A stretch of 44,477 nt of DNA from a phage, in the NCBI GenBank assembly GCA_029889005.1, contig GCA_029889005.1_4349.1, one strand, 5' to 3'. Position numbers and translations under genes: made by a program. The notes beneath the pieces are model-generated. The model did no database searches. It was given only the letters and a program-made list of their open reading frames with translations, and was not told the DNA's origin. Positions 4,449-11,640 of this stretch are shown piece by piece; position 1 is the stretch's first letter; the number at the start of each line of letters is the position of its first letter.

Positions 4449-4930
4449 ATTCGTGGAAACGATGATTGTGCGGTCCCGTAGGCTTTAAGGAAACATCCCA
4501 GCCCGTCGCCATAACAACCATACAAATCAGGCAGATTGTTAATCAGACACTGGTTCTCGAGGTCCTGGAACGGTGATTTCTCAGCGGTTGCCGTGAAAGT
4601 AATTGTCCAGTTAATCCCGTCTTCGGTGGACTCCGCGATGGTTGACGTGATAGTTACCTGATAATCCTCGATACCCATGCCGAAGTCATGCGCCATCCAG
4701 AAACTTGACGCACCGCCGTCTACTTTTTCGAGGAACGACAGAAACGCCTGTCGCCCCATTGCGGATGTAATGAGGGTTACGCTCACCGGGAACACGTCGT
4801 AATACGTGTCACGGCCCTGACGCACCCCGCCACCGGCTAAATCAACACTCCAGACGTTGTTACGTCTGGTCATTGAGTAGCCTTTTGATACGATGGGCTT
4901 AAGGCTACGTGGGAAATATAAGTCAGTCAT
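4430..4930 (-). CDS. Minor tail protein
   Basis: 166 aa ORF starting at the tape-measure stop; position only. Confidence 0.4.
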   Translation of the reverse strand: MTDLYFPRSLKPIVSKGYSMTRRNNVWSVDLAGGGVRQGRDTYYDVFPVSVTLITSAMGRQAFLSFLEKVDGGASSFWMAHDFGMGIEDYQVTITSTIAESTEDGINWTITFTATAEKSPFQDLENQCLINNLPDLYGCYGDGLGCFLKAYGTAQSSFPRIWDPMQ

Positions 4931-6933
4931 TATTTGAACCCCGGCGCATTTCTTGTGGCCTTGCGGGCCTTGCTAATCTTACTGTTGCTGTTCCGCAAAG
5001 ATGCCGCAACTTGCTCTTCTATGATGATGCGTAGACGGCCTTCATCATCCTGTTCAGTGGATACGTTGCCGATTTGAGAACTCGTGTTGTTTACGATAGT
5101 AACATTAGATGGCCCACTATTTCCGCTATTATTGCTATTTAACTGTTGTCGTGTTTGACTTGCATTTACCGCCCTGCCAGAACCCACCATCTTGATAATC
5201 TCAGGGCCGCGTTCACCAACCAGATAGCTACCACCAGCGTTCATTTGTCCGCCCTGTTCACGCGCGCCGCTAATCTTGGCGATGTTCGCCACCCCTGCCG
5301 CGACAGCCAGACCCGCGGCAACTGGGGCGAGTGCCGGACCGACAATAGGAATAGCAGCAGTTGATTTATAGGCTTCGATAGCAGCCGTGTAAGTGGCAAT
5401 AGTCGCTTGCGTTATGGCGAACGCTTTGTACGCAGCGGACGTCTCCCCTAGTGCGGATTTAGCATCCGCTGCCATGCTGCCGAATGCGTCGGCGGTGGCG
5501 TTGGCCTGTGCAATATTGCTCTGTTCGTTCAGGTTACGCACCGCATTAGCGTATTCTTCTTCACTGATTAGTTTCTGTTTAAGGAAATCGTCCAGTTGCT
5601 TAAGTTTGGCGTCATTCTGCCGTTGGATTTCCTCAAACTCTGTGCCACCCAGCGCCTGTAGTTTCTCCAGATATGCATCAGCATTGTTATACAGTGCATC
5701 TCGTTGCGCCTGAAACTCAGCCATGATGTCACTTTTCGACTTCTCATAGTCGGCGTCGCTTACAAGTTGCTTGTCGTGGAACTCCTGTAACTTAGCCAGT
5801 TTCTGTTTCTCTTTAGCGTCTATCCGTTCTAACTCTGTTCCGGTGTTTGTGTCTATTTGAGCTATAAACTGGTCTGCTGCTTTCTGTGCGCTTTCCTGCG
5901 CGCGAGCGTCGGCACGGGCTTGGGCATCTGCGCGTTTCTTAGCTGCGGCAGCGATACGATTCTGCCTGTCGATTTCCTTCTGTGCCCTGTCTGCCTTATC
6001 CTTTTCGTATGTCTTCTCGGATTGCTCTACCCCTTTCCGCTCGGCTGCGCGGGTCTTTTCCTCCACACCAAGGTAGTTAAGTTCATTTCGCAGTTTATTT
6101 ATTTCCATCTGCGCTTCTGGCGTTTTGGCCTTTATGCCGTCTAGGTAGGCGACCAGCCCCTCTCGAGCGCCAGGAACCCCGGCTGCGATTGCTTTCTGAG
6201 CAACTTCAATATTGCGTAACTCTTTGGCGGTCAACCCCGCAGCTTCCGCAGCAGATTCGTACTGGAAAGCCACGGCCCCGGCAGCGTTCCCGCCTTGGGC
6301 TATCTGGGACGCGGCAAGGTTGGTAGTCAACTTCTGAAACAGAGACTGGGCTTTCGTTACCTTATCGATAGCTTCAACAATCTTATCCGCGGTGGAGTTA
6401 GCCTGTACGGCGGTTGCCTCTAGTGCCTTATTAAGAAATGCCATCTTCTCCGCTGTTGTCGCCCCGACAGCGTCCAGTTTTTCCAGTGCGTCATTCATAT
6501 CATACACACCGGGTGTGGCCTCATTAAGAGCGTCATCGAGGAACTTAGTAGCTTCCTCCAGTTGTTTAGCGGTATCCGTTGAGTTACTCAAAGACGCGTA
6601 CAGCGCGCCGCCGATTACGGTGGCGATAGTCAATACCGTACCCGCAATTGGATTGAATGCAGACACTAACTGACTACCTTGTTGCGTGAAAGCCGTGAGG
6701 GCGGACTGCCCCCCTTGGATTTGCACGATAAAGTCCTGTACCTGATACCCAGCGTTACCTATTGACGCCCGCATTGCGTTCATCTTCGGTGTTGCCGCGG
6801 TGGTGGTGTCCGTTAGTTTCTTCGTACTGGAATCAGCTTTCCCGGCAGAACTACTAAGGTTATCTAACTGCTTTGCTGCTTGCTCCGCTCCAGTTGCCTG
6901 GACTCGTACCATTAAACTCGCGGTATCAGCCAT
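4930..6933 (-). CDS. Tail tape measure protein
   Basis: 667 aa, Ala/Gln/Lys-rich coiled-coil composition with hydrophobic Gly/Ala-rich C-terminal segment; directly downstream of chaperone pair. Confidence 0.8.
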   Translation of the reverse strand: MADTASLMVRVQATGAEQAAKQLDNLSSSAGKADSSTKKLTDTTTAATPKMNAMRASIGNAGYQVQDFIVQIQGGQSALTAFTQQGSQLVSAFNPIAGTVLTIATVIGGALYASLSNSTDTAKQLEEATKFLDDALNEATPGVYDMNDALEKLDAVGATTAEKMAFLNKALEATAVQANSTADKIVEAIDKVTKAQSLFQKLTTNLAASQIAQGGNAAGAVAFQYESAAEAAGLTAKELRNIEVAQKAIAAGVPGAREGLVAYLDGIKAKTPEAQMEINKLRNELNYLGVEEKTRAAERKGVEQSEKTYEKDKADRAQKEIDRQNRIAAAAKKRADAQARADARAQESAQKAADQFIAQIDTNTGTELERIDAKEKQKLAKLQEFHDKQLVSDADYEKSKSDIMAEFQAQRDALYNNADAYLEKLQALGGTEFEEIQRQNDAKLKQLDDFLKQKLISEEEYANAVRNLNEQSNIAQANATADAFGSMAADAKSALGETSAAYKAFAITQATIATYTAAIEAYKSTAAIPIVGPALAPVAAGLAVAAGVANIAKISGAREQGGQMNAGGSYLVGERGPEIIKMVGSGRAVNASQTRQQLNSNNSGNSGPSNVTIVNNTSSQIGNVSTEQDDEGRLRIIIEEQVAASLRNSNSKISKARKATRNAPGFK

Positions 6934-6934
6934 T

Positions 6935-7312
6935 CTAATCGTCCTCGTTACGGCCTTCGAACAGTGCGTCGAGGCCCATTATTAAGTCTACCTCAAGCAA
7001 CGAGAACGGCTGTTTATGCAACTCTGCGTACGCTGTAAGGTGGTGATATTGGAGCATTTCCCTTGGTATTAGCACATTATTGCGACTTACAAACTTCAAT
7101 GCGTAGTATTTATCCATTATTTTCATCATATCACTCGGGCATTCCGGCGGGGTTTCCTCCGGCTCCTTCGGTACAGGCAACCCCATAGCCGCCATAGCAG
7201 CCTTGTGCCCGTCGGCGATGGAGTCGAACTCACGTCTCCTTTGCCGTATAACCCAGCGATACCTAGCATATTCGTAAAGCGCTTCTACTTTACAGATAAA
7301 GCTTTGCGGCTC
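6935..7312 (-). CDS. Tail assembly chaperone, frameshift-extension (T-like) frame
   Basis: Frame is -1 relative to 7285..7701 and stays open ~39 codons upstream of first ATG (7195) with no ATG/GTG/TTG, overlapping the G-like ORF end; ends at tape-measure start. Confidence 0.45.
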   Translation of the reverse strand, partial: EPQSFICKVEALYEYARYRWVIRQRRREFDSIADGHKAAMAAMGLPVPKEPEETPPECPSDMMKIMDKYYALKFVSRNNVLIPREMLQYHHLTAYAELHKQPFSLLEVDLIMGLDALFEGRNEDD

Positions 7313-7701
7313 TCAGCATGGTGTTGAGCGACAGCCCCTCCCAACCCTTTATACTCCTTCAACAGCTTGACCAACGCTTTCTTAGTGAACTTCTCCTCGA
7401 AGGACCACCCTACAACAACAACGGCAGCAAGTGCATCGTTAAGTTTAGCCAATTCACTGTTTAATTCTGTGTTATAGCGCGCCCAGTCCCCTTTCTCGCG
7501 GCACTCCGCGTCGAGGGGTTTCAGGTGGTCAAGGATGTCGCGGTAAGCGGAGATAAAATCCTTAGCTGCTGCGATTGAGTCGTCGCAGTCCGGCCCCATC
7601 ACCTGCAACCACTCCCCTGAGTCACTGCCGTCCGGTAGTAGGATAGGCATCTTAGTTCCCGCAGCGTGGCGGGACGCGAAATAAAAATCAGAAAGTTTCA
7701 T
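7285..7701 (-). CDS. Tail assembly chaperone (G-like)
   Basis: 138 aa acidic ORF immediately upstream of the T-frame ORF and tape measure. Confidence 0.65.
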   Translation of the reverse strand: MKLSDFYFASRHAAGTKMPILLPDGSDSGEWLQVMGPDCDDSIAAAKDFISAYRDILDHLKPLDAECREKGDWARYNTELNSELAKLNDALAAVVVVGWSFEEKFTKKALVKLLKEYKGLGGAVAQHHAESRKALSVK

Positions 7702-7809
7702 TCTTTAATCCTTTGGTTAAGAGGTTGTTGGTTAAAGAGAAATGCACCAGGCGGTAACCAACCGCTTTTCGTGCGCGACACTAGGTGCAAAATTATTCTA
7801 ACACACTAC

Positions 7810-7878: not shown

Positions 7879-8205
7879 ATGCGTAAATTAATCATAGCCC
7901 TTGGTCTTATTTCTTTTTGCGCGGTAGGGTCCCAGTGTGAGCAAGTATATAGTGAAACCCCTTTAGTAACTTCCGGGACGCTTGATTCAGCCCCTCCGGC
8001 TGCCGTTAGTGCGTTTAAAACCGCTGCTATTCGCGAATGTAATGCTGCCGTGCGGGCTGGCAGGTCTGGCCTGGGTCTTGAATTGATGACATCCCTTGTT
8101 GTTGAGTCTGTAGATGTTAACAGCCCTACTTTCAGCAGCCTACTGTTAGCCACCCGCCTGCAAATGGTAATGACTGGGTGGGCAATAGGCGCAGAAAGTA
8201 AATAG
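7879..8205 (+). CDS. Small secreted protein (signal peptide)
   Basis: AGGA RBS; N-terminal MRKLIIALGLISFCAVGS hydrophobic signal-like segment; preferred over overlapping antisense ORF 7857..8153. Confidence 0.5.
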   Translation: MRKLIIALGLISFCAVGSQCEQVYSETPLVTSGTLDSAPPAAVSAFKTAAIRECNAAVRAGRSGLGLELMTSLVVESVDVNSPTFSSLLLATRLQMVMTGWAIGAESK

Positions 8206-8269
8206 TCGCCTTTATTTAAAGGAATGCACTGTGGTTAAATAGGACAAATCCTAAACACGAGGAATAAAC

Positions 8270-9400
8270 ATGGCCCGGAAGAAAATAACCGACGAACAGT
8301 TGCAGGAAGAATTGAACGCCGGTATGAAGAATGTAGATATCGCCCGTAAATACGGCATCTCAGACCGCGTAATTCGTATCCGTAAAGCGAAGCTGGCTAA
8401 GAAAGGCGTGGGCCACGGGCGCGACGTTAGCCACCTTGTGCCAGACGGCTACAAGATTAAAGGAACGTCGTCCCTGGTGGACGAGTTCGGCAACACTAAG
8501 TTGCAATGGGTTAAGACCGACGCTGATGCCGAACGTCAGGTTGAATTGATGAAAGCCGTAATAGAGGGCATGAAGTCAGAGATTACGCCCGTTGCGCCTG
8601 TTAAACCGGCACGAGCCAAACGTGACGATAAACTACTCAATCTTTACACGGTATCTGATTTCCATCTCGGTATGCTGGCATGGGCCGATGAGAGCGGCGA
8701 CGACTGGGACATGAAGATTGCAGAAGACCTGTTCTCTCGGTGGTTCGACGCGGCGTTTCAGAAAGCACCGGATGCAGGAACAGGAGTTATTAACCTGCTT
8801 GGGGACTTCGCACACTTCGATAGTCTTGATGCCGTTACCCCCGAGTCGCGCCATGTATTAGATGCGGATACTCGCTATCAGAAACTGGTACGTTACATGA
8901 TTCGTATGGTCCGCCGTGTTGTTGATATGGCGCTGGTTAAGCATCACACAGTAAAACTTTTAATCGTTCAAGGTAACCACGACCCTGTTGGCTCCGTATG
9001 GCTTGCCGAAATGTTCACGGTTTTATACTCAAACGACAGCCGAGTGATTGTTGATACGTCGCCGGATGTTTACAAGATGGTGCAACACGGCAAAACGACG
9101 CTGTTCTTCCATCACGGGCATAAAGCACGATTCGACGCTATCGAACCGGTTATGATTGCCAAGTTCCGTAAAGCGTTCGGCGAGAGTGTTTACAGCTACG
9201 CCCACGTAGGCCATCTGCACCACCAGAAGATTGTAGAAAGCCGTAACATGATTGTTGAGCAACACCGCACCTTAGCGGCTAAAGACGCCTACGCCTCTCG
9301 CGGCGGATGGATGTCGGGCCGCAGTGCAAATGTAATTACTTATAGCGCCGAATATGGCGAGGTCGCACGTTTAACTATTTCACCGGAGATGCTGGGATGA
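8270..9400 (+). CDS. Calcineurin-like metallophosphoesterase with N-terminal HTH-like region
   Basis: Motifs DFHLG, GDFAHFD, GNHD, HHGH, GHLHH typical of metallophosphoesterases. Confidence 0.7.
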   Translation: MARKKITDEQLQEELNAGMKNVDIARKYGISDRVIRIRKAKLAKKGVGHGRDVSHLVPDGYKIKGTSSLVDEFGNTKLQWVKTDADAERQVELMKAVIEGMKSEITPVAPVKPARAKRDDKLLNLYTVSDFHLGMLAWADESGDDWDMKIAEDLFSRWFDAAFQKAPDAGTGVINLLGDFAHFDSLDAVTPESRHVLDADTRYQKLVRYMIRMVRRVVDMALVKHHTVKLLIVQGNHDPVGSVWLAEMFTVLYSNDSRVIVDTSPDVYKMVQHGKTTLFFHHGHKARFDAIEPVMIAKFRKAFGESVYSYAHVGHLHHQKIVESRNMIVEQHRTLAAKDAYASRGGWMSGRSANVITYSAEYGEVARLTISPEMLG

Positions 9401-9885
9401 AAGATATTGTAATTTTCGATTTAGACGGGACATTGGCTGACGGTACCCATCGCTTACACCTGTTACCAAAAGATAACTACGGAGAAACGTGGGCGTGGAA
9501 GCCATTTAACATGGCCTGCAAAGATGACGCTCCGATATACGACAATATCCATTTGTGTAGCGTACTGTGGCATTCCGGACTTACTATAATTATCCTTACC
9601 GGGCGAAGTGATGACGCTGAGGAGGAGACTCGCGAATGGTTACGAGAGAATAACGTTAGGTTTGACACGCTAATCATGCGCAGCAAACACGACAACAGAA
9701 AAGACATCGTAATTAAAGAAGAGGTGTTGCGTGCTTTCGGACTGGAAAGAATCTTGTGTGCGTTCGACGACTCTCCAGCGGTAATAAAGCATTTCCGTGA
9801 CCTCGGCATAACCGCACACGCAGTTACCGAATACGACTGTAACGGGAACTCTACACACTTAAAACCACACGGGAGCGATAAATAA
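9397..9885 (+). CDS. HAD-superfamily phosphatase
   Basis: N-terminal FDLDGTL motif I, downstream LTGR and FDDSP motifs; start overlaps upstream stop. Confidence 0.65.
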   Translation: MKDIVIFDLDGTLADGTHRLHLLPKDNYGETWAWKPFNMACKDDAPIYDNIHLCSVLWHSGLTIIILTGRSDDAEEETREWLRENNVRFDTLIMRSKHDNRKDIVIKEEVLRAFGLERILCAFDDSPAVIKHFRDLGITAHAVTEYDCNGNSTHLKPHGSDK

Positions 9886-10439
9886 TGGCTAAGGTAATTA
9901 TTCTTAATGGCCCTGCGGGTTGCGGGAAAGACACGCTTGCTATGGCGCTGGTAGAAATGGGCTTTGCGAAAGGAACTACCAGTTTCAAGAATCCGATGTT
10001 CAATATTGCTATGGCTGCGTTAGGCCAGGATGCTTACCGCGAGTTTCTCGATGGCTACGACGACCGGGCGCGGAAAGAAAAGCCAGAGGGTTTCCTTAAC
10101 GGGTTGTCTCGGCGTCAGTTCATGATTGCCATTTCCGAGCAATTCATTAAACCGGTGTTCGGTGATGATTATTTCGGTAAGTATCTTGCCGGAAACTTGC
10201 CCGACGGCGACGAAGTTTTTGTGGTGTCTGATGGCGGGTTCGCCAGCGAAGTAGCCCCTATCGTTGCCGTGGGGCATGACGTGCGAATCGTCCGCCTCCA
10301 TCGTGACGGCTATACGTTCATCTGCGATAGCCGTGGCTATCTGTACGATGTTAGTGGTGTAAAAGATTACGACACCTACATCATACCGGGTGACGTTAAA
10401 TCGAACGTTATAGACATTGCTTTAAAATTAGGTTTGTAA
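9885..10439 (+). CDS. P-loop nucleotide/nucleoside monophosphate kinase-like protein
   Basis: Walker A GPAGCGKDT near N-terminus; start overlaps HAD gene stop. Confidence 0.65.
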   Translation: MAKVIILNGPAGCGKDTLAMALVEMGFAKGTTSFKNPMFNIAMAALGQDAYREFLDGYDDRARKEKPEGFLNGLSRRQFMIAISEQFIKPVFGDDYFGKYLAGNLPDGDEVFVVSDGGFASEVAPIVAVGHDVRIVRLHRDGYTFICDSRGYLYDVSGVKDYDTYIIPGDVKSNVIDIALKLGL

Positions 10440-10470: not shown

Positions 10471-11640
10471 TGCGTAGGTGATACGTTGAATTACGATAGA
10501 CGACTGGTACTGATTGCCGGTAGCCTGGCCTTCAATGGACTGAGTGATTGACTCAGGCCCACCAATCTCAGGTGTAACCGCCGTAAGCTCTGCACGTTTC
10601 AAACTGAAAGACATAGCCCCGTTTACCCCTGCCAGAATAGAGTTAATCTCTACCTGCTGCTCGTTGATAAACTTCTGAATCATCGCCATGTCGTACAGCT
10701 TGCCAGAGATAGAGAATGTGTTAGCTGCGCGTCCACGTTCTACAAACGCTACGTTAGTGTTGCCGAGTTCGAACTGCGCGGACGCGCTGTTGTCGTTGGT
10801 GATGGTGAGAGTATCGCAACGCAACGGCGTGGAGCCATCGAACACCGACACATCTACCGACGAGAACGGCTCATCGGTGAACGTAACCCGAGAGAAATCA
10901 GAGCCAGACGGCGGCGTGGTAAGAATCTCCTGACTCAGGCCGATGAACGGGAAACTACCGGTTACCATCGCGTTTACGGCCTGTTCAATGGTGAAACCGG
11001 AGATTTCAACGCCTTTGGTCAGCATGTACGCGCCCGGGTTACCACACTGGCCCTTGAACCACGTCAGGATGGAGAACGTCTTACACGCGTTACCGGTTTC
11101 CAGCTTGTCGCCAGTTTTTGCGTCAGTGGTTACTGTCTCTGCTGTCAGCGTGTGCTGAATACCTGCGCCCGTAACTACCAGAGCGGAAACCGCGGTCACG
11201 ATAAACGGTTTTGCGTTGTCGCCGGTTAAGTCGGTGAACGCAATAAGGTCGCCAACTTTTACACCGTCAGTAATGAAGCTATCGGCAGCGCGGGTGAATG
11301 TTTTACCTGCTGGGGCGACCGTAATTTCGGCGCCAGTAATCTCTACCCCAGCTCGCCACGTAGAAGTCATCGCTCCCGCAAGGAAATCATCCTGGCTACG
11401 AGAGCTAAGTTCGATGGCGTACTCCCCGCTAACCTGTTTGTTACCGGTTCGGATGGATGTAGTTTCACGGCTGCCGTCCAGTTCGTTGGAAGTCAGTGCA
11501 TCGCGGGTTACAGCGGGAACGCCGCCCGTGTTACGCAACGGCGACCATACCGGGTTAGTCGGTGTTACGCCAGGGGTATTTTCCGCCACATAGAATTGCG
11601 CGGTATTCGCGCCCTTAAAAGGAGTTGTAGCCATATTCAC
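10468..11640 (-). CDS. Major tail (tube) protein, putative
   Basis: 390 aa ORF last in the neck/tail run before the chaperone genes; position and size only. Confidence 0.5.
   Translation of the reverse strand: MNMATTPFKGANTAQFYVAENTPGVTPTNPVWSPLRNTGGVPAVTRDALTSNELDGSRETTSIRTGNKQVSGEYAIELSSRSQDDFLAGAMTSTWRAGVEITGAEITVAPAGKTFTRAADSFITDGVKVGDLIAFTDLTGDNAKPFIVTAVSALVVTGAGIQHTLTAETVTTDAKTGDKLETGNACKTFSILTWFKGQCGNPGAYMLTKGVEISGFTIEQAVNAMVTGSFPFIGLSQEILTTPPSGSDFSRVTFTDEPFSSVDVSVFDGSTPLRCDTLTITNDNSASAQFELGNTNVAFVERGRAANTFSISGKLYDMAMIQKFINEQQVEINSILAGVNGAMSFSLKRAELTAVTPEIGGPESITQSIEGQATGNQYQSSIVIQRITYA

What the first reader, a model, noticed from the sequence alone, without database searches (positions are those of the whole stretch)
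6935..7701. Candidate -1 frameshift joining the tail assembly chaperone ORFs, without a canonical slippery heptamer
The ORF upstream of the tape measure is open for ~39 codons before its first ATG with no start codon, lies in the -1 frame of the preceding chaperone ORF, and overlaps its last ~9 codons. The overlap (GAG AGC CGC AAA GCU UUA UCU GUA AAG UAG) has no XXXYYYZ motif.
Basis: partly seen in the sequence, partly recalled or inferred. Interest (0 to 1): 0.4.

Follow-up and report, generated by a model that had tools for sequence, protein, structure and literature searches.

The report
Tail chaperone frameshift at A_AAG-stop
This is the ordinary programmed -1 ribosomal frameshift that tailed phages use to make a short and a long tail-assembly chaperone, here using a minimal four-base slippery site (A_AAG) directly against the stop codon instead of the textbook seven-base site.

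Summary
On the minus strand a 138-aa tail assembly chaperone ORF (7701-7285) is followed by an ORF in its -1 frame. That ORF is open from 7312, has no ATG/GTG/TTG until 7195, and ends 1 nt before the tape measure gene. The overlap holds no X_XXY_YYZ heptamer. One PHROG profile (15027, 259 positions) spans both ORFs with its junction at the last Lys. Protein homology in 488 phage records starts at the first residue after the junction. Codon-phase variability switches from frame 0 to frame -1 exactly there. No start codon is conserved in relatives (first possible start +8 to +323 nt).

The shift site is A_AAG (7291-7288) abutting UAG (7287-7285). NNA_AAG_UAR ends ORF1 in 76 of 77 distinct Guernseyvirinae-type relatives, and the preceding codon varies (GAA, GCA, GUA, UCA, GGA, AAA). 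Three relatives have canonical G_GGA_AAG or A_AAA_AAG at the same spot. The predicted product is a 255-aa fusion, ...ALSVK|VEALYEY...

The same junction is already annotated for phage K1H (YP_009168853.1) and a frameshift product for Shemara, so this is a new member of a known kind. No conserved stimulatory RNA structure or SD-like element was found. The adjacent stop is the likely stimulator, but that is inferred.

The parts
7285..7701 (-). ORF1, the G-like tail assembly chaperone: 138 aa, ATG at 7701, stop UAG at 7287-7285
   Evidence: phrog_15027 E=2.8e-50 (profile 1-138) and Pfam Phage_TAC_4 27.5 bits against a cut-off of 21.1. The exact protein is in public data as WP_419669794.1 'phage tail assembly chaperone'.
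7288..7291 (-). Slippery tetramer A_AAG. tRNA-Lys reading AAG (7290-7288) re-pairs on AAA (7291-7289).
   Evidence: It is one of two in-phase Z_ZZN motifs in the overlap and the only one conserved in relatives. It is invariant in 76/77 distinct relatives while the two bases before it vary. The profile junction falls here.
7285..7287 (-). ORF1 stop codon UAG immediately 3' of the slippery tetramer; candidate 'shifty stop' stimulator
   Evidence: UAG (48) or UAA (21) directly follows A_AAG in 69/70 distinct relatives. A stimulatory role is inferred, not shown.
7285..7312 (-). Overlap between ORF1 and the open part of the -1 frame (28 nt)
   Evidence: In relatives the overlap can be as short as 19 nt and still contains A_AAG.
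6935..7288 (-). -1 frame part (T-like domain) read after the shift: GUA (7288-7286) = Val, then EALYEY..., 117 aa, stop UAG at 6937-6935. The fusion product is 255 aa.
   Evidence: phrog_15027 profile 137-258 E=4.9e-35 and Pfam Phage_TAC_18 42.2 bits against a cut-off of 27. tblastn homology from residue 1 in 488 phage records. Third-position variability is phased in the -1 frame from the junction on.
7277..7282 (-). GCGCUU (GCGCUG in most relatives): Ala-Leu codons 3 nt after the stop, with frozen synonymous positions in relatives; role unknown
   Evidence: Ala is GCG in 69/69 and the Leu third base is G in 67/69. Other conserved Ala/Leu columns have third-position entropy of 1.5-1.8 bits.
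4930..6933 (-). Tape measure protein gene (667 aa), starting 1 nt after the stop of the -1 ORF
   Evidence: phrog_1538 E=3.9e-106

Best explanation
This is a programmed -1 ribosomal frameshift of the lambda G/GT type. Most ribosomes translate the 138-aa chaperone and terminate at UAG 7287-7285. A minority shift back one base at the last sense codon. The single E. coli tRNA-Lys (anticodon mnm5s2UUU), paired with AAG (7290-7288), re-pairs with the overlapping AAA (7291-7289). The next codon read is then GUA (Val), and translation continues in the -1 frame to 6935. The product is a 255-aa fusion (...ALSVK-VEALYEYARY...) whose C-terminal T-like domain is made in no other way. The preceding tRNA-Val on GUA cannot re-pair on UGU, so this is single-tRNA (tetramer) slippage rather than tandem slippage. 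The stop codon waiting in the A site probably supplies the pause that a pseudoknot or SD-like element supplies elsewhere (P-site slippage with a slow-to-decode A site). Shown here: the ORF geometry, the homology across the junction, and the conservation of A_AAG_UAR. Inferred: the exact mechanism (P-site or A-site slip), the role of the stop codon, and the efficiency.
For: (1) One 259-position PHROG profile covers ORF1 (positions 1-138) and the -1 ORF (137-258) with the junction at the last Lys.
(2) ORF1 ends NNA_AAG_UAR in 76/77 distinct relatives found without reference to the motif. The codon before AAG encodes five or more different amino acids (GAA, GCA, GUA, AAA, UCA, GGA), yet its third base is always A.
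(3) Three relatives carry canonical heptamers at exactly this position: A_AAA_AAG in L039/L040 and G_GGA_AAG in L022.
(4) K138, V139, A141 and L142 are invariant across the junction, and the 35 residues before the first ATG include the conserved FDSIA.GH motif.
(5) Column entropy peaks at frame-0 third positions upstream (1.46 against 1.08 and 0.94). It peaks at -1-frame third positions downstream from the junction (1.40 against 0.64 and 0.60).
(6) No start is conserved. The first ATG/GTG/TTG lies +8 to +323 nt after the stop in relatives, and the window's ATG 7195 is a Leu codon elsewhere. The internal ATGs have background-level anti-SD pairing, -3.8 and -3.0 kcal/mol against -5.4 and -5.9 for the two real starts.
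(7) The K1H fusion built with this junction is identical to the deposited YP_009168853.1/ADA82316.1. Shemara's record carries a 'tail assembly chaperone frameshift product'.
(8) A_AAG is the most shift-prone -1 tetramer in E. coli (PMC4066793). NNA_AAG sites are used at cdd and IS1222 (PMC5009743).
Against: There is no direct protein evidence for this phage or, as far as I found, for any member of the subfamily. In reporter constructs tetramers without a stimulator were barely above background (0.147% against 0.112%), and A_AAG reached 5.6% only with the IS3 pseudoknot (PMC4066793). Some stimulator is therefore needed. I found no conserved one other than the adjacent stop. RNAalifold predicts 0 pairs. 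The mean folding z-score of the downstream 75 nt is -0.29. The median anti-SD pairing upstream is -2.2 kcal/mol. Rfam gives no hit. I found no citation showing that a stop codon stimulates a -1 slip at A_AAG; that step is an analogy with prfB and with 'shifty stops'. The conserved position of the stop could also simply reflect the required length of the short chaperone.
Confidence: 0.85

Rival explanations
1. The downstream ORF is an independent gene, translated from its own start (ATG 7195 or 7186, giving an 86- or 83-aa protein). The open stretch upstream of that start would then be fortuitous.
For: An ATG exists at 7195, preceded by AAGG. Many GenBank records (Bas75, SETP7, Esher4) annotate a separate second CDS. 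A 39-codon open stretch alone has a chance probability of about 0.15.
Against: The annotated starts differ between relatives (+8 TTG, +35 GTG, +92, +101 ... +323) and fall on ordinary Leu/Val/Met codons. The window's ATG 7195 is Leu in relatives, and the Met at 7186 is Ile in L041/L046/L054. The 35 codons upstream are under protein-level constraint in the -1 frame. Anti-SD pairing is at background level. In L046/L052 the first possible start would leave about 13 codons.
Confidence: 0.06
2. The -1 shift occurs at the other in-phase tetramer in the overlap, U_UUA (7300-7297). The junction would then be ...KAL|ICKVEAL...
For: U_UUA is a Z_ZZN motif lying within the open overlap.
Against: U_UUA was only 1.8- to 3.6-fold above background even with a strong pseudoknot (PMC4066793). 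It is absent from relatives, including the closest one, Esher4, which has CUG UCG there. In relatives whose overlap is only 19 nt this position is closed by a -1-frame stop.
Confidence: 0.03
3. Termination at UAG is followed by re-initiation (translational coupling) at a nearby near-cognate codon. This would yield a separate T-like protein rather than a fusion.
For: Coupled restarts close to stop codons are common in phage operons. The Jersey-type relatives have a TTG 8 nt after the stop.
Against: The window has no ATG/GTG/TTG within 92 nt of the stop. The +8 TTG occurs in one clade only, where it is the invariant Leu142 codon. Coupling does not explain the invariant A before AAG or the invariant AAG. 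Conserved K-V across the junction fits a fusion.
Confidence: 0.03
4. Transcriptional slippage: RNA polymerase adds one A in the A-run, so a fraction of mRNAs encode the fusion in frame.
For: Inserting one A into GUAAAG would give the same protein sequence as the ribosomal -1 shift.
Against: The run is only 3 A in the window and 3-6 in relatives. From general knowledge, productive slippage by bacterial RNA polymerase needs runs of roughly 7-9 or more. Slippage does not explain the invariant G after the run or the abutting stop.
Confidence: 0.02

Closest known systems
Phage lambda G / G-T tail assembly chaperones (-1 frameshift at G_GGA_AAG; Levin, Hendrix & Casjens 1993; Xu, Hendrix & Duda 2004, as summarised in PMC5009743)
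   Same: Two overlapping ORFs lie immediately upstream of the tape measure gene. The second is in the -1 frame and has no start of its own. The slipping A-site codon is AAG, read by tRNA-Lys. The outcome is a short product plus a rare long fusion.
   Different: Lambda has a full tandem heptamer, whereas the window has U_GUA_AAG, where only the Lys tRNA can re-pair. Here the site is the very last sense codon, abutting the stop. The tail tube gene is not directly upstream: a divergent 2.7-kb module intervenes. Homology to lambda G/T themselves was not tested; the matches are to Pfam Phage_TAC_4 and Phage_TAC_18.
Escherichia phage K1H ORF19A/ORF19B (YP_009168854.1 / YP_009168853.1, Kagunavirus) and Salmonella phage Shemara 'tail assembly chaperone frameshift product'
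   Same: These are homologous proteins (about 51% identity for the fusion) with the same 138-aa ORF1, the same -1 arrangement and the same junction after the terminal Lys.
   Different: K1H has G_GAA_AAG_UAA and the window has U_GUA_AAG_UAG. The window phage is only 80% identical in nucleotides to its nearest GenBank relative, Esher4, where the two ORFs are annotated as separate hypothetical proteins.
Single-tRNA -1 frameshifting on A_AAG tetramers / NNA_AAG hexamers (IS3, IS1222 G_CGA_AAG, Bacillus subtilis cdd A_CGA_AAG; PMC4066793, PMC5009743)
   Same: The minimal motif is A_AAG, with poor or no re-pairing of the preceding tRNA. It depends on the AAG-to-AAA preference of tRNA-Lys(UUU).
   Different: The IS examples rely on a downstream pseudoknot or an upstream SD-like element. 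Neither is conserved here. The constant neighbour here is a stop codon.
prfB (RF2) +1 frameshift at CUU_UGA: the 'shifty stop' principle
   Same: The shift-prone codon sits directly 5' of a stop codon, so slow termination would give the P-site tRNA time to slip.
   Different: The direction is +1 rather than -1. prfB has a conserved SD-like stimulator 3 nt upstream and is autoregulatory. No functional test of the stop has been done here.

Membership tests
G/GT-type tail assembly chaperone frameshift (Xu, Hendrix & Duda 2004) | Two overlapping ORFs located immediately upstream of the tape measure protein gene | tested here: met
   ORF1 is 7701-7285, the -1 ORF runs to 6935 and the TMP gene is 6933-4930 (phrog_1538 E=3.9e-106)
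G/GT-type tail assembly chaperone frameshift (Xu, Hendrix & Duda 2004) | The second ORF is in a shifted frame relative to the first and lacks a conserved start codon of its own | tested here: met
   It is in the -1 frame and has 39 start-less codons. The first possible start in relatives varies from +8 to +323 nt.
G/GT-type tail assembly chaperone frameshift (Xu, Hendrix & Duda 2004) | A shift-prone sequence in the overlap that allows tRNA re-pairing in the new frame | tested here: met
   A_AAG (7291-7288) is in phase and is conserved in 76/77 relatives. The stricter canonical heptamer X_XXY_YYZ is absent from the window but present at the same position in L022 and L039/L040. I treat the heptamer as usual rather than defining, because tetramers are accepted -1 motifs (PMC4066793).
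G/GT-type tail assembly chaperone frameshift (Xu, Hendrix & Duda 2004) | Sequence membership of both parts in tail assembly chaperone protein families | tested here: met
   Pfam PF08748 scores 27.5 bits (cut-off 21.1) and PF23812 scores 42.2 bits (cut-off 27). phrog_15027 and phrog_313 are also matched.
G/GT-type tail assembly chaperone frameshift (Xu, Hendrix & Duda 2004) | Two proteins (short, and long fusion) are actually produced in a fixed ratio, and both are needed for tail assembly | not testable with these tools
   This needs proteomics, western blots and genetics.
Guernseyvirinae chaperone pair (phrog_15027; K1H ORF19A/B) | Full-length match of the conceptual fusion to the family profile, with the junction after the C-terminal Lys of a 138-aa ORF1 | tested here: met
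   Profile positions 1-138 plus 137-258 are matched. The alignment has K138, V139, A141 and L142 invariant. The K1H fusion is identical to YP_009168853.1.
Z_ZZN tetramer single-tRNA -1 frameshift sites (IS3/IS1222/cdd type) | An in-phase A_AAG where the preceding codon cannot re-pair in the -1 frame | tested here: met
   U_GUA_AAG: GUA to UGU gives no cognate re-pairing, read directly from the sequence.
Z_ZZN tetramer single-tRNA -1 frameshift sites (IS3/IS1222/cdd type) | A flanking stimulator: a downstream hairpin or pseudoknot 5-9 nt away, or an SD-like element 9-14 nt upstream | tested here: inconclusive
   There is no consensus structure, no excess folding energy and no conserved SD-like element. 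One long-range helix (7280-7270 / 7229-7220) is 84-85% paired across relatives and is the best of 36,005 helices of that shape. However, it shows no covariation beyond shuffles, and in the window only its inner 5 bp form.
'Shifty stop' sites (stop-codon-stimulated slippage of the P-site tRNA) | [quoted passage not shown] | tested here: met
   A_AAG_UAG in the window; UAR follows in 69/70 distinct relatives.
'Shifty stop' sites (stop-codon-stimulated slippage of the P-site tRNA) | Frameshift efficiency responds to release-factor activity or to replacement of the stop by a sense codon | not testable with these tools
   This needs reporter assays with UAG changed to UGG (which keeps Val in the -1 frame) and modulation of RF1 levels.

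The most novel reading that the evidence does not exclude
Across the whole Guernseyvirinae subfamily, the G/GT ratio is set by a bare A_AAG tetramer whose only constant partner is the abutting UAR stop codon, together with a frozen GCGCUG 3 nt further on. There is no tandem re-pairing, pseudoknot or SD-like stimulator. That would be a natural, evolutionarily maintained case of stop-codon-stimulated -1 P-site slippage. The ratio of short to long chaperone would then be coupled to RF1 activity in the host.
Probability: 0.35. Interest if true: 0.45.

Novelty: new member of a known kind. Interest (0 to 1): 0.25.

Why it matters
The main value is for annotation. The second ORF should be annotated as the -1 frameshift extension of the chaperone (join at 7288, 255-aa product), not as a separate hypothetical protein. 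The comparative pattern gives a simple rule for the whole subfamily: ORF1 ends in A_AAG_UAR. For recoding research it offers a compact natural site for testing whether an adjacent stop codon can replace an RNA structure as the stimulator of a -1 shift.

Tried and rejected
- RNAalifold on 18 diverse junction regions predicted 0 pairs.
- Per-sequence folding of the 75 nt after the site gave a mean z-score of -0.29, so there is no excess structure.
- The window's own best fold has a hairpin (7294-7287 / 7280-7273) that contains the slip site in its 5' arm. It is window-specific, and the ribosome would have melted it, so I rejected it as a stimulator.
- I found a candidate long-range helix (7280-7270 / 7229-7220), but covariation does not exceed the shuffles, and I fitted its shape after seeing the data. 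It is left as inconclusive.
- An upstream SD-like element is present in only a few relatives (L019 AAGGAG, L005), not in the window (-2.1 kcal/mol).
- Rfam gave no match at E<=1 in 6900-7760.
- The promoter/terminator scan found nothing above the shuffle expectation.
- A large protein search with the fusion returned only 2 ORF1-length hits and no natural in-frame fusions, so it was uninformative.
- A literature search for Kagunavirus plus frameshift returned 0 papers.
- Licznar et al. 2003 (NNA_AAG efficiencies) was not held, so I could not obtain measured values for GUA_AAG or GAA_AAG.

Full report
**Observation**

The genes lie on the minus strand.
- ORF1 starts at ATG 7701 and ends with UAG at 7287-7285. 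It encodes 138 aa ending ...ESRKALSVK.
- The frame of the next ORF has a UGA at 7315-7313 and is then open from 7312 to UAG 6937-6935. The ORF listing places its first ATG/GTG/TTG at 7195, so 39 codons are open with no start.
- (7701-7312) mod 3 = 2, which makes it the -1 frame. The overlap with ORF1 is 28 nt.
- A phase-aware scan finds no X_XXY_YYZ heptamer in the overlap. It finds two in-phase tetramers, U_UUA (7300-7297) and A_AAG (7291-7288).
- The tape measure gene (6933-4930, 667 aa) starts one base after the -1 ORF's stop.

The open stretch alone is not improbable ((61/64)^39 is about 0.15), so the case rests on comparison with relatives.

**Identity of the proteins and the phage**
- ORF1 matches phrog_15027 'tail assembly chaperone' over profile positions 1-138 (E=2.8e-50). 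The -1 ORF matches the same 259-position profile over positions 137-258 (E=4.9e-35), so the family profile was built from fused products.
- Pfam gives Phage_TAC_4 for ORF1 and Phage_TAC_18 for the -1 ORF, both above their gathering scores.
- The region resembles Kagunavirus and other Guernseyvirinae phages of E. coli. The nearest record, Esher4 (PQ579973), is 80% identical over the 1.5-kb query.
- The flanks fit a siphovirus tail module. Minor tail and tail-tip proteins lie downstream of the tape measure gene. Tail terminator and tube-position genes lie further upstream. They are separated from the chaperone gene by an oppositely oriented exonuclease / polynucleotide kinase / dNMP kinase module.

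**Comparative evidence for a fusion**
- I collected 116 related loci from IMG/VR and GenBank.
- Locating ORF1 only by its N-terminal motif gave 77 distinct sequences. In all of them the downstream ORF is in the -1 frame, and in 76 of them ORF1 ends ...NNA_AAG_UAR (69 of 70 distinct 151-nt junction segments).
- The codon before AAG is GAA (52), GCA (9), GUA (4), AAA (2), UCA (1) or GGA (1). The amino acid varies while the third base is always A, which is the reverse of normal coding constraint.
- L022 reads G_GGA_AAG and L039/L040 read A_AAA_AAG. These are canonical heptamers at exactly the same position.
- The one exception, L116, is a distant GC-rich 81-kb contig. It has a canonical U_UUU_UUC inside its own overlap.
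- An alignment of nine conceptual fusions (46-95% identity to the window) has L135, K138, V139, A141 and L142 invariant across the junction. It also has a strongly conserved FDSIA.GH.AAL.AMG block that lies upstream of the window's first ATG.
- tblastn with the -1 part, starting at the junction Val, finds 494 phage records. In 488 the match covers at least 80% of the query, and it typically begins at residue 1.
- Column entropy in an ungapped 18-sequence alignment peaks at frame-0 third positions upstream of the site (1.46 against 1.08 and 0.94). It peaks at -1-frame third positions from the site onward (1.40 against 0.64 and 0.60).

**No independent start**
- In relatives the first ATG/GTG/TTG in the -1 frame lies at +8, +11, +29, +35, +92, +95, +101, +140, +149, +170, +281 or +323 nt from the stop.
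- The window's ATG 7195 corresponds to a Leu codon in the other sequences. The next Met (7186) is Ile in L041, L046 and L054.
- Anti-SD pairing upstream of ATG 7195 and 7186 is -3.8 and -3.0 kcal/mol. That is within the background of this region (46% of 17-mers reach -2.9). The starts of ORF1 and the tape measure gene score -5.4 and -5.9.
- The separate CDS annotated in Bas75, SETP7 and Esher4 begin at such non-conserved codons.

**Already known in relatives**
- K1H's RefSeq record has a two-piece CDS (ORF19B) next to ORF19A.
- The K1H fusion I built with the junction ...SEK|VKALY... is letter-for-letter the deposited ADA82316.1/YP_009168853.1.
- Shemara's record carries a 'tail assembly chaperone frameshift product'.

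So the frameshift is known for the family, but it is annotated inconsistently. I found no paper describing the site itself.

**Mechanism**
- A_AAG is the most efficient Z_ZZN tetramer for -1 shifting in E. coli. In E. coli, which has a single lysine tRNA, that tRNA re-pairs cognately on AAA (PMC4066793; PMC5009743).
- NNA_AAG sites without P-site re-pairing are used at B. subtilis cdd and IS1222.
- In the window the preceding GUA cannot re-pair on UGU, so only tRNA-Lys slips.
- The expected product is ...ALSVK (AAG, re-paired on AAA) followed by V (GUA) E A L Y..., 255 aa in total.
- Tetramers alone were near background in reporters (0.147% against 0.112%) and needed a pseudoknot to reach 5.6%. 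Some stimulator is therefore expected.
- I found no conserved RNA structure, no conserved SD-like element and no Rfam match.
- The only constant neighbours are the abutting UAR stop and a GCG-CUG pair of codons 3 nt later with frozen wobble bases. GCG occurs in 69/69 and the Leu third base is G in 67/69, whereas other Ala/Leu columns show 1.5-1.8 bits.
- I therefore propose that slow termination at the stop gives the P-site tRNA-Lys time to slip. This is an inference by analogy with 'shifty stops' and prfB (PMC5009743), not a demonstrated property.
- One long-range helix starts 7 nt after the tetramer (alignment columns 53-63 with 104-113; window 7280-7270 with 7229-7220). It is paired in 84-85% of cells and ranks first among 36,005 helices of that shape. 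It shows no covariation beyond the shuffles, I fitted its shape post hoc, and in the window only the inner 5 bp form. I leave it open.

**Rivals**

I considered four alternatives and consider each unlikely:
- independent initiation;
- a slip at U_UUA;
- termination followed by re-initiation;
- transcriptional slippage in a 3-A run.

The reasons are given under each rival. Together I give them roughly 0.14.

**Verdict**

This is a real programmed -1 frameshift of the well-known tail-chaperone kind, in a phage not identical to any deposited record. It uses a minimal A_AAG site at the last sense codon. It is a new member of a known kind. Its interest is modest: chiefly a clean annotation rule for the subfamily, and a compact natural candidate for stop-stimulated -1 slippage.

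Noticed in passing
window 7277-7282 (-); alignment A2 columns 51-56: The Ala and Leu codons 3 nt after the ORF1 stop have frozen synonymous positions in relatives: GCG in 69/69, and the Leu third base is G in 67/69. Other conserved Ala/Leu codons nearby vary freely (1.5-1.8 bits). This points to a nucleotide-level constraint just 3' of the shift site whose nature is unknown. The window itself has CUU rather than CUG.
   Followed up: partly
window 7270-7280 with 7220-7229 (-): A candidate long-range helix (5 bp, a bulge, 5 bp, with a 40-nt loop) starts 7 nt after A_AAG. It is 84-85% paired across relatives and is the best of 36,005 helices of that shape. It shows no covariation beyond column composition, and only its inner 5 bp form in the window.
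   Followed up: partly
window 7287-7294 with 7273-7280 (-): The window (and, with one mismatch, Esher4) can form an 8-bp hairpin whose 5' arm is the slip site itself (UGUAAAGU / GCUUUACG). It is not conserved in other relatives.
   Followed up: partly
window 7879-10439 (+), between 10471-11640 (-) and 7701 (-): The tail gene order is interrupted. A module of about 2.7 kb on the opposite strand (hypothetical protein, DNA repair exonuclease, polynucleotide kinase, dNMP kinase) sits between the tail terminator and tube-position genes and the chaperone gene. The chaperone therefore heads its own leftward gene block. K1H has the same layout.
   Followed up: partly
L022 1900-1917; L039/L040 1600-1617; L116 1545-1560: Some relatives carry canonical heptamers. 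G_GGA_AAG (L022) and A_AAA_AAG (L039/L040) sit at exactly the window's slip position. The distant L116 has U_UUU_UUC about 12 codons before its stop.
   Followed up: yes
L059 (IMGVR_UViG_638275545_000001) 1050-1826: The ORF1 homologue is split between two reading-frame segments and lacks the usual MKLSDFY start. This may be a sequencing error or a genuine disruption in that genome.
   Followed up: no
GenBank records PQ850596 (Bas75), NC_022754 (SETP7), PQ579973 (Esher4) versus NC_027994 (K1H), NC_069152 (Shemara): Annotation of this gene pair is inconsistent across the subfamily. Some records join the ORFs as a frameshift product. Others call a separate second CDS from whichever TTG, GTG or ATG comes first.
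   Followed up: yes
window 7285-7701 (-) protein: The exact 138-aa ORF1 protein is deposited under E. coli accessions (WP_419669794.1, HBM2117721.1 and others) and occurs on 17 contigs, the longest 44,839 bp. Near-identical phage genomes are therefore present in bacterial assemblies.
   Followed up: no
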